A stretch of DNA of 64,000 nt, taken from a plasmid. Shown here piece by piece: positions 9,001-21,000 of the stretch; positions within the stretch are counted from its first letter, which is position 1; each line of letters opens with the position of its first letter. Location of the stretch: the sequence record CP128686.1; one strand, given 5' to 3'. Made by a program: the position numbers.

Positions 9001-12000
9001 CAAAATTTCCCTGACCACACGCCTGAGCCTGATTTTTTCTGCGGTGATGCTTACGGTATGGTGGTTATCAAGTTTTATCCTGATTAGCACCCTGAATGGC
9101 TATTTCGATAATCAGGACCGCGATTTTCTGACAGGTAAACTTCAGCTCACCGAAGAGTTTCTTAAAACAGAGACGTTCAGGAACAAAACGGATATTAAGT
9201 CATTATCAGAAAAAATAAACGATGCGATGGTGGGGCACAATGGCTTATTCATTTCTATAAAAAACATGGAAAATGAAAAAATTGTTGAACTCTATGCCAA
9301 AAATTCTGTTGTTCCAGCGGTCCTGCTTAATAAGTCGGGTGATATTCTCGACTATATGATCCAGACGGAAGAAAATAACACCGTGTACCGCAGTATCTCG
9401 CGGCGGGTTGCCGTGACGCCGGAACAGGGTAAAAGCAAACATGTCATCATTACGGTTGCCACGGATACTGGGTATCACACCCTGTTTATGGACAAACTCA
9501 GTACCTGGCTGTTCTGGTTCAATATCGGTCTGGTCTTTATTTCTGTTTTTCTGGGCTGGCTGACCACACGTATTGGTCTGAAACCGCTACGGGAAATGAC
9601 CAGTCTGGCTTCCTCCATGACCGTACACAGCCTGGATCAGCGTCTAAATCCCGATCTGGCTCCGCCGGAAATCTCTGAGACCATGCAGGAGTTCAATAAT
9701 ATGTTTGATCGCCTGGAGGGGGCATTCCGAAAACTGTCAGATTTCTCGTCTGACATCGCGCATGAGCTGCGCACACCAGTCAGTAATCTGATGATGCAGA
9801 CGCAGTTTGCACTGGCTAAGGAAAGGGATGTTTCGCATTACCGCGAAATTTTATTCGCTAACCTGGAAGAACTGAAAAGGTTGTCACGAATGACCAGTGA
9901 CATGCTTTTTCTGGCACGTTCAGAGCATGGTCTGCTGCGGCTGGATAAACATGATGTGGATCTGGCAGCCGAACTGAATGAATTACGTGAGTTGTTCGAG
10001 CCCCTGGCAGACGAAACAGGAAAGACAATCACGGTTGAAGGAGAGGGCGTTGTTGCCGGAGACAGCGATATGCTCCGACGTGCTTTCAGTAACCTGCTTT
10101 CCAATGCAATCAAGTATTCTCCCGATAACACCTGTACAGCGATACACATTGAGCGTGACAGTGACTGTGTGAACGTGATGATTACGAATACGATGTCCGG
10201 CCAGGTTCCCGCTAATCTGGAACGTTTGTTTGACCGGTTCTATCGCGCAGACTCATCAAGGTTCTACAACACGGAAGGCGCGGGGCTGGGATTATCAATT
10301 ACAAGGTCGATTATTCATGCTCACGGCGGCGAGCTGTCAGCAGAACAGCAGGGGCGGGAAATTGTGTTCAGTGTGCGTCTGTTAATGGATTAATACCGTT
10401 ATTCAGGAGAAACCCGGAAGGTGACAAAAATGTCATCGTTCAGTCACGCGATAAACAGAGGCGGTTTTTTATAATCAGCCATAAATCAGGACAGCGTGAT
10501 AATTCAATCGCCCGGTTCCTGGCGTGATGATCAACCAGCCCTGAGATCAAATGCTTTCTCTGTTATAAGCATTGATTGTTCGGGTATGAAAACACCGGAG
10601 ACCCAACCATGAAAAAGATCCTTGTATCCTTTATTGCCATGATGGGGTCGCCTCAGAAAACGGAAAATAAAGCACGCTAAGCCCTTACTTACCCAGATGT
10701 TTGACTGTTCGTGGCACTTTCACCATGGCAATTGCCCAACCCTTGCAAAATGCCGCACGCCTCTACAGATCGAGAGCCAGAACACTTCTCGCGCAAATCA
10801 ACCAAGTGCCGTTTTAACTGCAACAGCGCGGACACACGCATTTCCACCTGTTGAATATGGGCCTCCAGCAGCGTGATGACCTCCCCACAGTCCTGCATCG
10901 GGTTGTCTCGCAGACCCAGCAATGCGCGAATCTCGCTCAACGTCATGTCGAGCGAACGGCAATGACGGATGAATTGCAAGCGCTCAATGTGCGCCTCACC
11001 GTACAACCGAAAGTTGCCACCGCTTCGCGCTGGCTTTGGCAGTAGCCCTTCCTTCTCGTAGTAGCGGATGGTCACGACCTCGCACCCAGAGCGCTTGGCG
11101 AGGTCGCCAATTCTGATTTCCATGCATCAATCTCCAATTATCACTTGACTCTATAGTGACTATAGAGATTTTAATGGAGGCTGAATAGAAGATTTTCAGG
11201 AGTTACTCATGAGCGAATGCGCTTCAAAGGGGTGTGGCTGCACGACTGAGCCGATCATCCAACCCACGGCACCGGCCCCGCTGGCAACCGGATCGGCTCA
11301 AGCGGTGTACCGCATCGAGAACATGGATTGCCCGACCGAAGAGGCGCTGATCCGAAGCAAACTGGCCGGTCTGGCGGGGGTGGCGGGTCTTGAATTCAAC
11401 CTGATGCAACGTACCTTGGCCGTGCGACACGAATTGCCTTCGTTGTCTCCCGTCGAGCAGGCGCTGAAGGCCATCGGCATGCAAGCTGTGCGCATGGATC
11501 AGGCGTCGGCCGAGCAGACGACCAAGCTGTCCATTGCCAAGATGGATTGCCCGACCGAAGAGACGTTGATCCGCAACAAGCTCGGCACCGTGGCCGGTGT
11601 TGCTGATCTCGATTTCAACCTGATGCAGCGCACGCTGTCGGTACGCCATGCGAACCAGGTTCTGCCAGACGTGCTCGTGGCACTGCAAGCGCTTGGATTC
11701 GAGGCGCAGGTCGTGGACACGGCAGAGGTCGCATCTCCATCCGCCGCCCCTGTGACCACGCCGACCAACTGGTGGCCGCTGGGCATCTCCTTGGTCACTG
11801 CATCGGCGGCCGAGGCGGTCTACTGGCTCCACAACGGCAATCACTGGTCGGTTGTCGTTCTGGCGCTTGTCGCGGTCTTCACGGGTGGCCTCTCCACCTA
11901 CAAGAAGGGGTGGATCGCGCTCAAGAACCGTAATCTCAACATGAACGCCCTCATGTCGATTGCGGTCACGGGTGCCATGTTGATCGGCCACTGGCCCGAA

Positions 12001-18000: not shown

Positions 18001-21000
18001 CGTGCAGGCCGGACTCAACAAAGGCGAGGCGCGCAACGCGCTGGCCAGGGCGGTGTTCTTCAACCGACTGGGCGAAATCCGCGACCGCAGTTTTGAGCAA
18101 CAACGCTACCGGGCCAGCGGCCTCAATCTGGTAACGGCGGCCATCGTGCTTTGGAACACGGCCTATCTGGAACGGGCAACCAATGCTTTGAACGGGCACG
18201 GCAAACCGGTAGACGAGACGCTGTTTCAATACCTGTCACCGCTGGGGTGGGAACACATCAATCTGACCGGCGATTACCTCTGGCGCAGCAGCACCAAGGT
18301 CGGCGCAGGCAAGTTCAGACCGTTGCGACCACTGCCACCGGCTTAACGTGCTTTATTTTCCGTTTTCTGAGACGATCCCAGCATAAAATGAAAGTCACTG
18401 AACCCGGGCTGAATAAGCTGATCGATAACCTGAACACCCTGATTTGCGAGGACAGCCTGCTCACGCGCCAGGAGCGTGAAACGCTGGTACTGGCCGTCGC
18501 CGCTATCGGCGCCATGAAAGCGCGCGTCGGCTTGAAAAAAGGCGATGCGCCGACCGTTGCCAGACGGGAAAAAAGGGAGAAAAAAGACCGCCAGCCTGAT
18601 CCGCGTTTTCCGCGAGCCGGTCATCCCTGGCAGGAAGACGAAAAAACCTTACTGAGTGATGCGCTCGATTCGGTACCGGACGAAGAGATTGGCAAGCATC
18701 TGTTCTGGCTTTCCGAGAAACTGGGCAGAACGCCTTTCAGTGTTGCTTTCCAGATCGCGGCAATCAGGGAGCTGCAGGACGGCTGGGAGGAGCAGTTCAG
18801 GGAGATTTCGGATAACATTCGCTTGTCCGGTCTGAGCATCAGTGATTATCTTACACAGAACGGCACGGGCCATAACGCCTGAAAGAAATTTGCGTTATTT
18901 GTAAAATTAAATACCAGGGAAGCCTCAGGATATAAAAAACTAATGACGAAACAGGAATGGATTTTACGACTACGGCGCTGTACATCGAAGGAAACCCTGG
19001 AAAGGGTTATAGAAAAAAATAAATATTCTCTGTCAGATGATGAGCTTGAGCATTTCAATGCCGCGGTTGATCACCGGCTGGCGGAGATGACGATGGGAAA
19101 GTTGTATGACCGGGTACCGCCAGGTGTCTGGAAATTTGTGAAATAGAACAGGTGATATTATGAGTTACGGCTGGCTCTTCGAAAATCCGGATGATGGCAT
19201 TTCGGGTGGTAATCATATCAATCTGGAACACCTCCCTCCGGAGCTAAAACAGGTTGTTCTCCAGATACTACAGAATCAGATTAATCGTGATACAGCAGAG
19301 AAAAAACTGGCAGAATTAATCCAGCAACTCGAGTTTGATATAACTGCAGCAGAACTGTCAGCATATCTTTTTAAACCGGGCCATGCCTGATGGCTTACCC
19401 GGTAGCGATAATAGTGGAGACCGACGGAGGACTCCACTTTGGCCGCTGGATCAGCAAAAAAAACAATGCAACTAGTTGATATTTAACATAAAACGCATTA
19501 AGCGCACTAATGCTGTCAGCACAAAGCGTTATTGTCGTCTCAGCACAATTCACACGCGTCGTGTACGCTAAGCCTTCATTTTGCTCAGCACAGGACCGCG
19601 ATCTTATATTGGCTAGACAAAGTCTGTAACTCCAATATTCTAATGTCACTTTTGGGGCTGCGGATGTTTTCCTGGACTGTTATGTTGTGATCCCAAGATG
19701 CTGCCGGTACTTCACCGGACTCATTGCACCTAATGATAGTAGACTGGCCCCATGAATCTCCAGACAGTTGGTATAACTTAAGTTAGTGATAGTCTTAATA
19801 CTAGTTTTTAGACTAGTCGTTGGAGTCCGGATGATTGATGTTTTAGGTCCAGAGAAGCGCAGACGGCGCAGTGTTCAGGAAAAAATCGCCATTGTTCAGC
19901 AGAGCTTTGAACCCGGTATGACCGTCTCGCTGGTCGCCCGGCAGCATGGTGTTGCCGCCAGTCAGCTGTTCCTGTGGCGCAAGCAGTATCAGGAAGGCAG
20001 TCTTACCGCCGTTGCCGCGGGTGAACAGGTTGTGCCCGCGTCGGAACTGGCATCGGCAATGAAGCAAATTAAAGAACTGCAGCGCCTGCTGGGCAAGAAA
20101 ACTATGGAAAACGAGCTGCTGAAAGAAGCCGTTGAATATGGCCGCCAAAAAAAGTGGATAGCGCACGTGCCCTTGTTGCCGGAGGATGGCGAATAAGCCT
20201 TGTCAGCCGTTGCCTCCGGGTCTCACGTGCGCAACTGCATGCCATGGCTCGTCGGTCGAAGAGCTGGCAGGATCGTCGACGCAAGCGCAAGCCTGATGAT
20301 ACTGAAGCGCTGGACCGTATCCAAACCGTTATTGGCGAGCTGCCAACGTATGGTTATCGTCGGGTGTGGGCACTGCTGCGCAGACAATCAGAAACTGACG
20401 ACATGGCCATTATCAATGCCAAACGCGTATACCGCATCATGCGTCAGAATGCGCTGCTGCTTGAGCGTAAACCTGCAATACCGCCCTCGAAACGGGCGCA
20501 TACAGGGAAAGTGGCTGTAGGGGAAAGTAACCAGCGGTGGTGCTCTGACGGCTTCGAGTTCAGGTGTGATAATGGCGAAAAACTGCGTGTAACGTTCGCA
20601 CTGGACTGCTGCGATCGTGAAGCCCTGCACTGGGCGGCCAGTACCGGTGGATATGACAGCGAAACCGTGCAGGACGTCATGCTGGGTGCGGTGGAACGAC
20701 GCTTCGGCAGCAGCCTGCCAGCATCCCCAGTAGAATGGCTGACAGACAACGTTCAGCTTATCGTTCTCATCAGACGCGTCAGTTCGCCAGAATGGTAGGA
20801 CTGGAGCCTAAACATACGGCGGTACGCAGCCCGGAAAGCAACGGGATGGCAGAGAGCTTCGTCAAAACGATGAAGCGCGATTACATCAGCATCATGTCGA
20901 AGCCCGACGGGTTAACAGCGGTAAAGAACCTTGCGGAGGCCTTCGAACATTATAACGAATGGCATCCGCATAGTGCGCTGGGATATCGTTCGCCACGGGA

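What the first reader, a model, noticed from the sequence alone, without database searches (positions are those of the whole stretch)
10609..18388. Tn21-subgroup transposon carrying lead-resistance pbrR-pbrA-pbrBC inserted in pcoE, without target duplication
The 38-bp inverted repeats bracket pbrR (divergent), pbrA (CPTEE HMA domains), a PbrB-PbrC fusion, tnpR and tnpA. The left repeat abuts codon 12 of pcoE (MKKILVSFIAMM). DNA beyond the right repeat is unrelated to pcoE, and the 5-bp flanks differ (ATGAT vs AGCAT). The insertion was therefore followed by an adjacent deletion or rearrangement that removed the rest of pcoE and whatever followed. Cargo GC is about 65 percent versus about 50 percent for pco, indicating a beta-proteobacterial or pseudomonad origin (pbr is best known from Cupriavidus).
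Basis: partly seen in the sequence, partly recalled or inferred. Interest (0 to 1): 0.6.

Follow-up and report, generated by a model that had tools for sequence, protein, structure and literature searches.

The report
Lead-resistance transposon replacing plasmid DNA
This is the well-known lead-resistance (pbrRABC) region of Klebsiella pneumoniae pLVPK-type virulence plasmids: a complete 7.7-kb Tn21-type transposon that sits where the end of the copper gene pcoE and at least 2.2 kb of plasmid backbone used to be. It is correctly read but ordinary.

Summary
Window 10644-18379 is a complete 7,736-bp Tn21-subgroup (Tn3-family) transposon. It has 38-bp inverted repeats, pbrR divergent from pbrA-pbrB/C, then res-tnpR-tnpA. 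The left repeat abuts codon 12 of pcoE. The 5-bp flanks differ (ATGAT / AGCAT).

The stretch is 100% identical to pLVPK (K. pneumoniae CG43) and more than 400 other plasmids, so the locus is already sequenced and annotated.

New detail:
- Both flanks are native backbone that is colinear in related IncFIB(K) plasmids. The transposon therefore replaces the rest of pcoE plus 2.2 kb (relE/parD and two small ORFs) to 14 kb (also the ars operons), depending on the ancestor.
- The deletion ends exactly at a repeat tip, as expected for a transposon-mediated adjacent deletion.
- Full-length relatives (80-97% identity) occur in Betaproteobacteria, marine Gammaproteobacteria and metagenomes. Three of these carry perfect 5-bp target duplications.
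- The enterobacterial copy is mosaic. It is 99-100% identical to environmental copies except for a 1.4-kb patch (13045-14477) about 13% diverged.
- Cargo GC is 60%, not 65%.

Interest is low: a correct reading of a known element.

The parts
10609..10643 (+). 5' stub of pcoE (codons 1-12, MKKILVSFIAMM). The G completing codon 12 is the first base of the repeat.
   Evidence: 100% identical to intact pcoE of NZ_CP099261.1 (L003) up to 10643. Homology to pcoE stops at the repeat, with 2 nt of ambiguity.
10644..10681 (+). Left (cargo-end) 38-bp terminal inverted repeat
   Evidence: Identical to one terminus of Tn4380 of pMOL30. The same repeat occurs in most of the 38 genome loci.
10689..11123 (-). 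pbrR, a MerR-family Pb(II)/Cd(II)-responsive activator (144 aa)
   Evidence: TIGR02047 CadR-PbrR scores 172 bits against a cut-off of 151. It is 69% identical to pMOL30 PbrR. The best solved structure is 5GPE. Cys14, 55, 79, 114, 123 and 132 are present. The pLVPK PbrR drives a Pb(II)-specific reporter (PMC12819690).
11145..11175 (+). PpbrA operator/promoter: -35 TTGACT (11145-11150), 19-nt spacer with dyad CTATAG-TGA-CTATAG, -10 TTTAAT (11170-11175)
   Evidence: Read from the sequence. The architecture matches PpbrA of pMOL30, which has TTGACT, a 19-bp spacer and TTAAAT (PMC3431237).
11209..13614 (+). pbrA, a P1B-type Zn/Cd/Pb efflux ATPase (801 aa)
   Evidence: TIGR01525 scores 592 bits. Two MDCPTEE HMA domains, CPC and DKTGT motifs are present. 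It is 76% identical to pMOL30 PbrA over the full length.
13611..14687 (+). pbrB/pbrC fusion (358 aa): PAP2 phosphatase domain plus signal peptidase II domain. Its start overlaps the pbrA stop (ATGA).
   Evidence: Pfam PAP2 and Peptidase_A8. NCBIfam lspA and undecaprenyl-diphosphatase. It is 57% identical to the 358-aa pMOL30 fusion.
13045..14477 (.). Mosaic patch (3' 570 nt of pbrA plus most of pbrB/C), about 13% diverged from otherwise near-identical environmental copies
   Evidence: Against L061 there are 191 differences inside the patch and 15 in the other 6.3 kb. The same pattern holds against L042, L014, L057 and L058.
14688..14816 (+). Presumed res (resolution) region upstream of tnpR. 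Inferred; the subsites were not mapped.
   Evidence: From 14678 onward the module is 99.7% identical to the res-tnpR-tnpA module of a mer transposon labelled TnAs2 (L004). It is 99.6-100% identical to TSD-flanked relative L057.
14817..15374 (+). tnpR, a serine resolvase (185 aa)
   Evidence: Pfam Resolvase and HTH_7. RefSeq WP_004213590.1.
15377..18346 (+). tnpA, a Tn3-family DDE transposase (989 aa, full length)
   Evidence: NF033527 scores 1302 bits and covers 3-954 of 954 model positions. It is 88% identical to Tn4380 TnpA.
18342..18379 (-). Right (tnpA-end) 38-bp terminal inverted repeat. Its outer end reads GGGATCG.
   Evidence: The same variant occurs in relatives L058 and L061.
18380..18882 (+). 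Native backbone resumes: AGCAT, then an intact 164-aa ORF (18388-18882), followed by hha
   Evidence: Homology to uninterrupted plasmids L002 and L003 begins exactly at AGCAT. Annotated as hypothetical or DNA-binding protein.

Best explanation
[quoted passage not shown] Its cargo occupies the position where Tn21 or Tn501 carry the mer operon, and it is a pbrR-PpbrA-pbrA-pbrB/C lead/cadmium/zinc resistance module.

How the cargo works (inferred from the Cupriavidus pbr system): PbrR senses Pb(II) and activates the 19-bp-spacer promoter. PbrA pumps Pb/Zn/Cd into the periplasm. The PbrB phosphatase domain releases phosphate that precipitates Pb.

How it got here: the element came from an environmental, mainly betaproteobacterial, pool into the sil-pco/backbone region of an IncFIB(K)-type Klebsiella plasmid. 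The present junctions are the product of a transposon-mediated adjacent deletion. One end keeps the flank of a transposition into pcoE codon 12 (ATGAT). The other end is joined to a site 8 bp upstream of a 164-aa backbone ORF (AGCAT). The DNA in between was lost: the rest of pcoE plus 2.2 to 14 kb.

The loss occurred either by intramolecular replicative transposition, or by TnpR/res or homologous recombination between two directly repeated copies. The two routes leave the same product. This single event was then inherited by pLVPK/pK2044-type virulence plasmids.

What is shown: anatomy, homologies, exact breakpoints, colinearity of the flanks, target duplications in relatives. What is inferred: the order of events, which flank was the primary insertion, and the resistance phenotype.
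For: - Termini, TnpA, TnpR and gene order fit the Tn21 subgroup.
- IS110-family elements sit at position 21/22 of both repeats in a relative (L050). In IncHI2-type copies the outer 21 nt of the left repeat are likewise displaced (L011, L030, L033). This is the Tn21-terminus-specific target of IS4321/IS5075 (PMC5955447).
- Cargo homology to pMOL30 pbr, the promoter architecture and Pb(II)-specific induction by the pLVPK PbrR (PMC12819690).
- In uninterrupted plasmids both flanks lie in the same order and orientation, 2,205 bp apart (L003) or about 13.95 kb apart (L002). Homology stops exactly at the outer repeat ends.
- The missing segment is absent from the window. pLVPK holds only one copy of the element, which excludes an inversion product.
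- Full-length relatives have perfect 5-bp duplications: L055 TATAA, L057 GACAT, L073 AGCTA. The element therefore normally makes duplications and this copy is derived.
- All Klebsiella contexts of the identical PbrA that keep both repeats uninterrupted have the same ATGAT/AGCAT junctions.
Against: - Neither predicted intermediate was found in 72,556 plasmids: transposon in pcoE with ATGAT on both sides, or transposon at the AGCAT site with AGCAT on both sides. The order of events is therefore not documented.
- Tn3-family elements show transposition immunity (established knowledge), which disfavours a second copy or an intramolecular hit nearby.
- The left flank is 99.6% identical to pKPN-IT while the right flank is only 93.8% identical. 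This could hint that the two flanks come from different plasmid lineages.
- The res subsites were not mapped.
- A lead-resistance phenotype of this copy was not found in the literature searched.
Confidence: 0.85

Rival explanations
1. Inter-plasmid origin. Two different plasmids each carried a copy of the transposon, one in pcoE and one upstream of the 164-aa ORF. Recombination within the shared copies (res x res or RecA) produced a hybrid replicon.
For: The flanks differ in divergence from the same reference: left 99.6%, right 93.8% to pKPN-IT. pLVPK is typed as a two-replicon IncFIB/IncHI1B plasmid. About half of the complete relatives also lack duplications, as is usual where Tn21-type copies recombine.
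Against: Both flanks are colinear and in the same orientation in single uninterrupted plasmids (L002, L003), so a cis deletion is simpler. sil-pco is itself a highly conserved mobile island, which explains the unequal divergence. Neither parental junction was found in PLSDB.
Confidence: 0.12
2. An ordinary insertion with a 5-bp duplication was followed by an unrelated deletion (IS-mediated or illegitimate recombination) that happened to remove one flank.
For: Deletions are common in these IS-rich plasmids. For example, the window lacks 893 bp present in pLVPK at 19499.
Against: The deletion end coincides to the base with the outer end of an intact 38-bp repeat. There is no IS or scar at either junction. 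Such precision is the signature of a transposase or resolvase-mediated event.
Confidence: 0.03

Closest known systems
pbrRABC region of K. pneumoniae CG43 plasmid pLVPK (NC_005249.1 / AY378100) and pK2044
   Same: 100% identical over window 2300-19499. The same junctions occur in more than 400 plasmids and in chromosomal copies. The cluster is cited in the literature as the lead-resistance genes of virulence plasmids (PMC6780558, PMC11358127), and its PbrR is used in Pb biosensors (PMC12819690).
   Different: Nothing in the region itself. Further along, the window is a pLVPK-like variant with an 893-bp deletion at 19499 and a 1-kb insertion near 36.7 kb. In the papers I could search, the cluster is not described as a bounded transposon with an adjacent deletion.
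Tn21/Tn501-subgroup mercury transposons (Tn4380 of pMOL30; 'TnAs2'-labelled mer element in p6BC1_mcr-9)
   Same: The 38-bp termini show 0-3 mismatches. TnpA is 88% identical to Tn4380 TnpA. The layout is the same: repeat, MerR-family regulator divergent from the metal operon, res, tnpR, tnpA, repeat. The res-tnpR-tnpA-repeat module is 99.7% identical to the TnAs2-labelled mer element.
   Different: The cargo is pbrR-pbrA-pbrB/C instead of merRTP(C)ADE. Homology to the mer element starts only at 14678, just before the pbrB/C stop codon. This copy lacks the 5-bp duplication.
pbr operon of Cupriavidus metallidurans CH34 pMOL30 (pbrTRABCD)
   Same: Order and orientation of pbrR, pbrA and the pbrB/C fusion. 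Identities are 69%, 76% and 57%. The fusion is 358 aa in both. The promoter has TTGACT plus a 19-bp spacer. The PbrR cysteines are conserved.
   Different: There is no pbrT (uptake) and no pbrD (Pb-binding protein). Here the module is carried inside a unit transposon, whereas in pMOL30 it lies in the genomic island CMGI-30a (PMC2864759).
Tn6362 of IncHI2 plasmids (p505108-MDR)
   Same: It contains the same 'pbrR-zntA-lspA' module behind a Tn21-type repeat interrupted by IS4321 (PMC5955447). The copies in Enterobacter and Superficieibacter genomes are 99.8% identical to window 10665-14704.
   Different: In Tn6362 the module is joined to a Tn1696 mer end and lacks tnpAR-res. A separate truncated piece (13673-18379) sits next to rcnR in Hafnia plasmid pAVS0177-a.

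Membership tests
Tn21 subgroup of Tn3-family transposons | 38-bp terminal inverted repeats of the Tn21/Tn501 type (GGGG...CTAAG) | tested here: met
   The repeats lie at 10644-10681 and 18342-18379. They have 1 and 2 mismatches to the pattern, with 0 expected by chance. They have 0/1 and 3/2 mismatches to the Tn4380 termini.
Tn21 subgroup of Tn3-family transposons | Full-length Tn3-family DDE transposase | tested here: met
   NF033527 scores 1302 bits with full model coverage. Pfam DDE_Tnp_Tn3 and DUF4158 match. It is 88% identical to Tn4380 TnpA.
Tn21 subgroup of Tn3-family transposons | Serine resolvase gene upstream of tnpA and co-directional with it, with res upstream of tnpR | tested here: inconclusive
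   Gene order and orientation are met. The 129-bp gap 14688-14816 is 99-100% identical to that of active-looking relatives. The res subsites I-III were not mapped.
Tn21 subgroup of Tn3-family transposons | 5-bp target-site duplication | tested here: not met
   This copy has ATGAT versus AGCAT. Relatives L055, L057 and L073 have perfect 5-bp duplications. The family feature therefore holds, and its absence here is secondary.
Tn21 subgroup of Tn3-family transposons | Termini are targets of IS4321/IS5075 | tested here: met
   L050 has 1.3-kb IS110-family insertions at position 21/22 of both repeats. RefSeq annotates IS4321 or IS5075 in relatives H2, H3 and H28. The target specificity is stated in PMC5955447.
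pbr lead-resistance determinant | PbrR: MerR-family regulator with Cys79/Cys114/Cys123, divergent from pbrA, acting on a 19-bp-spacer promoter | tested here: met
   The promoter was read at 11145-11175. The Pb(II)-specific response of the pLVPK PbrR is reported in PMC12819690.
pbr lead-resistance determinant | PbrA: P1B ATPase with CPTEE metal-binding domains and a CPC motif | tested here: met
   Two MDCPTEE motifs, CPC and DKTGT are present. It is 76% identical to pMOL30 PbrA.
pbr lead-resistance determinant | PbrB (PAP2 undecaprenyl-PP phosphatase) and PbrC (signal peptidase II) | tested here: met
   A single 358-aa fusion with both domains. It is 57% identical to the pMOL30 fusion of the same length.
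pbr lead-resistance determinant | PbrT uptake protein and PbrD Pb-binding protein (full pbrTRABCD) | tested here: not met
   There is no FTR1/ILT-family or PbrD-like ORF between the repeats. pMOL30 has pbrT next to pbrR. This is a pbrRABC subset.
pbr lead-resistance determinant | Confers Pb(II) resistance | not testable with these tools
   Only regulator/promoter function is documented in the papers found.

The most novel reading that the evidence does not exclude
The enterobacterial lineage of this transposon may be more than a passive copy of the environmental element. It is a recombinant whose 1.4-kb pbrA-3'/pbrB-C patch (13045-14477, about 13% diverged) has no close source in the genome or metagenome collections searched, apart from one short contig. 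The patch may have been selected to make the phosphatase/signal-peptidase module work in an enteric envelope. In addition, the transposon-mediated deletion that removed pcoE, a toxin-antitoxin pair and possibly ars may have been a founding event of the hypervirulence-plasmid lineage.
Probability: 0.1. Interest if true: 0.4.

Novelty: already known. Interest (0 to 1): 0.2.

Why it matters
It matters mainly for bookkeeping. The work gives exact boundaries and a history for a block that is present in essentially all pLVPK/pK2044-type hypervirulence plasmids and is usually listed only as 'pbrRABC'.

- It shows that these plasmids lack a functional pcoE and the adjacent backbone (and possibly ars) because of one transposon-mediated deletion. 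The two junctions can serve as a lineage marker.
- It shows that near-identical copies of the element circulate in environmental, wastewater and marine Beta- and Gammaproteobacteria. This links clinical virulence plasmids to an environmental metal-resistance pool.
- No new biology or mechanism is implied.

Tried and rejected
- Chimeric-junction searches for the two predicted intermediates (transposon right end + ATGAT + rest of pcoE; backbone + AGCAT + transposon left end). No PLSDB record covered either junction.
- The idea that the right half (res-tnpA-repeat) was captured from a mer transposon sitting at the AGCAT site. Rejected because TSD-flanked environmental pbr copies (L057) already carry the same module at 99.6-100% identity.
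- An inversion product of intramolecular transposition. Rejected because there is only one copy in pLVPK, only two repeats in the window, and the missing segment is absent from the window.
- A target duplication linking the IncHI2 fragments (L030 left flank TAGAT versus L005 right flank TGAAT). No match.
- Looking for right ends in the 38 genome loci.
- Literature searches for a name for this transposon (Tn6362, TnAs2, pbrBC, 'Tn3 family' + lead resistance). No paper was found that describes the pLVPK element as a bounded transposon. The 2004 pLVPK paper, TnCentral and ISfinder could not be consulted.
- An alignment of the res region to Tn4380 used a poorly chosen stretch and was uninformative.

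
Full report

Yes. An inverted-repeat search finds one strong pair, 10639-10683 and 18340-18384. The Tn21-type 38-mer matches only at 10644-10681 (+, 1 mismatch) and 18342-18379 (-, 2 mismatches), with 0 matches in 100 shuffles. The mercury transposon Tn4380 of pMOL30 has termini that differ from the window's left repeat at 0 and 1 positions.

Between the repeats lie five genes:
- a CadR/PbrR-type regulator, 10689-11123 (-)
- a P1B ATPase, 11209-13614
- a PAP2 + signal-peptidase-II fusion, 13611-14687
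- a serine resolvase, 14817-15374
- a full-length Tn3-family transposase, 15377-18346

The reading MKKILVSFIAMM from 10609 is the start of pcoE. It is 100% identical to intact pcoE in plasmid NZ_CP099261.1 up to the repeat. The flanks are ATGAT and AGCAT.

GC content is 60.4% for the cargo, 59.8% for the whole element and 49.7% for pcoA-S. The contrast is real, but 65% is reached only in single 500-bp windows.

**2. Where does it come from?**

Window 10300-18900 is 100% identical to K. pneumoniae CG43 plasmid pLVPK. It matches 412 PLSDB records over at least 80% of its length, including pK2044. The window as a whole is a pLVPK-like variant. It is identical to pLVPK over 2300-19499 and then differs by an 893-bp deletion and other indels. 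The exact PbrA protein is indexed in 9,802 blocks of the assembly collection. Among the ten places returned for it, every copy with both repeats uninterrupted, including copies on chromosome-sized records, has the same ATGAT/AGCAT junctions. The arrangement is therefore one inherited event.

**3. What was lost?**

Related IncFIB(K) plasmids carry both flanks uninterrupted, in the same order and orientation.

- In pKPN-IT-8788 (L002) the order is pcoS, pcoE, relE, aquaporin, GNAT, arsR/H, a sigma factor, arsD, arsCBADR, two small ORFs, then the 164-aa ORF and hha.
- In a K. aerogenes plasmid (L003) the order is pcoE, relE/parD, two small ORFs, then the 164-aa ORF.

Homology to the window stops exactly at the outer ends of the repeats. 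On the left the boundary is ...GCCATGAT|GGGG. The native sequence continues GGCTGTC, which gives 2 nt of ambiguity. On the right the boundary is ...GATCCC|AGCATAAAATG, 8 nt before the ORF's ATG. The interval replaced is 2,205 bp in L003 and about 13.95 kb in L002.

L003 is the closer relative: 100% on the left 175 bp and 97.8% on the right, against 93.8% on the right for L002. Neither version of the missing segment has any match in the 64-kb window. pLVPK holds only one copy of the element.

**4. Is it a real, mobile transposon?**

The 31-nt repeat/cargo junction occurs in 38 of the species genomes scanned. These include Thauera, Azonexus, Dechloromonas, three Accumulibacter plasmids, Methyloversatilis, Rhodoferax, Acidovorax, Comamonas, Polaromonas, Nitrosomonas halophila, Shewanella, Alteromonas, Marinomonas, Thalassospira and a few Enterobacteriaceae. 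Many different left flanks are seen.

A metagenome scan with the PbrB/C protein recovered seven full-length colinear copies of 7.74-8.5 kb at 80-97% identity. Three have perfect 5-bp duplications: L055 TATAA, L057 GACAT and L073 AGCTA. Four have none. The family therefore makes 5-bp duplications and frequently loses them, as is usual for Tn21-type elements.

In one Klebsiella chromosome (L050) both repeats carry a 1.3-kb IS110-family insertion at position 21/22. This is the Tn21-terminus-specific target of IS4321/IS5075 (PMC5955447). RefSeq annotates IS4321 or IS5075 in several relatives.

**5. Cargo**

Against pMOL30 of C. metallidurans CH34, PbrR is 69% identical, PbrA 76% and the PbrB/C fusion 57%. 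The fusion is 358 aa in both, and order and orientation are the same. pbrT and pbrD are absent.

PbrR keeps Cys14, 55, 79, 114, 123 and 132, using the numbering of PMC3431237. Its best solved relative is the CH34 PbrR-type regulator 5GPE.

The intergenic region has -35 TTGACT (11145-11150), a 19-nt spacer with the dyad CTATAG-TGA-CTATAG, and -10 TTTAAT. This is the MerR-type architecture shown for PpbrA. The pLVPK PbrR/promoter pair gives a sensitive, Pb(II)-specific reporter in E. coli (PMC12819690).

The resistance mechanism is taken from established knowledge of the Cupriavidus system (Hynninen et al. 2009, cited in PMC2864759). PbrA exports the metal, and phosphate released by PbrB precipitates it. 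This is inferred for this copy.

**6. Modular and mosaic structure**

From 14678, ten bases before the pbrB/C stop codon, to the right end, the element is 99.7% identical to the res-tnpR-tnpA module of a mer transposon labelled TnAs2 in an Enterobacter plasmid. It is thus a cargo variant of the mercury transposons. TnpA is 88% identical to that of Tn4380.

Compared with environmental pbr copies (L061, L057, L042 Nitrosomonas, L014 Comamonas), the window copy is 99-100% identical everywhere except 13045-14477. That patch has 191 differences against L061, versus 15 in the remaining 6.3 kb. The enterobacterial copy is therefore a recombinant in the pbrA 3' end and pbrB/C. The same allele is present in IncHI2-type copies (L011, L030, L033).

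**7. Mechanism for the missing duplication**

The deletion ends to the base at an intact repeat tip, with no IS or scar. This points to a transposase/resolvase-mediated event.

- The preferred reading is an adjacent deletion. It arose either by intramolecular replicative transposition or by resolution or recombination between two direct copies. The two routes give the same product.
- The inter-plasmid version (two plasmids, each with a copy) is possible but less simple, because the flanks are colinear in single plasmids.
- I could not find either intermediate junction in PLSDB. Which flank was the primary insertion therefore remains open.

**8. Novelty**

The sequence, its genes and the 'pbrRABC lead-resistance cluster' of pLVPK are long known. 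The module has been noticed inside Tn6362 of IncHI2 plasmids.

In the searchable literature I found no description of four points: the pLVPK element as a bounded Tn21-type transposon, the deletion it caused, its wide environmental distribution, or the mosaic patch.

These are routine refinements.

Noticed in passing
window 13045-14477: A 1.4-kb patch (pbrA 3' end plus most of pbrB/C) is about 13% diverged from environmental copies that are otherwise 99-100% identical. This is a recombination tract specific to the enterobacterial lineage. Its source was not found, except for one 1.8-kb metagenome contig (L092) that is 100% identical at protein level over residues 237-358.
   Followed up: partly
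window 10727: A 6-nt indel near the 3' end of pbrR relative to environmental copies. PbrR is 144 aa here and 146 aa in one Klebsiella-collection context (L046).
   Followed up: no
window 10636-10660 versus native pcoE (L003 6168-6190): The native pcoE sequence just past the breakpoint (GGCTGTCGCTTCA) resembles the transposon terminus (GGGGTCGCCTCAG), matching 10 of 12 positions with one gap. This is a post hoc observation. It may be chance, or it may reflect the old report (recalled from memory, not checked here) that Tn3-type elements favour targets resembling their ends.
   Followed up: no
L005 (Hafnia pAVS0177-a) 6544-11250; L011, L030, L033: IncHI2/mcr-9-type plasmids carry the same enterobacterial allele in pieces. 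One piece is a 5'-truncated pbrBC-tnpR-tnpA-repeat next to rcnR. Elsewhere there is a repeat::IS4321-pbrR-pbrA-pbrBC piece ending at window-equivalent 14704, described as part of Tn6362. No shared target duplication links them.
   Followed up: partly
L058 (metagenome contig JADHEE010000561.1) 5698-7016 of the element: A relative shows a 1.3-kb segment of tnpA in inverted orientation at 99.8% identity. This may be an assembly artefact or a real internal inversion.
   Followed up: no
window 19481-19499: The window lacks 893 bp that pLVPK has here (a DUF1778/TacA antitoxin and the start of a GNAT toxin). The junction lies at a 19-bp stretch that aligns to both sides of the gap. The window is therefore a pLVPK-like variant rather than pLVPK itself.
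   Followed up: partly
window 36701-37758 and 56840-57986: Two stretches of about 1.1 kb are not alignable to pLVPK, probably IS insertions or replacements.
   Followed up: no
window about 21600-39000: A cluster of zinc-independent paralogues and regulators appears on the virulence plasmid: hemB, dihydroorotase, a short thrS-like gene, folE2, dksA, carbonic anhydrase, zigA/cobW-type GTPases, hisI and two Fur-family repressors. It looks like a zinc-starvation island.
   Followed up: no
window 3511-3960 (-): A second PcoE/SilE-family gene (149 aa, Pfam PcoE) lies upstream of pcoA and remains intact. The plasmid therefore keeps one PcoE-like protein despite the truncation of pcoE proper.
   Followed up: no
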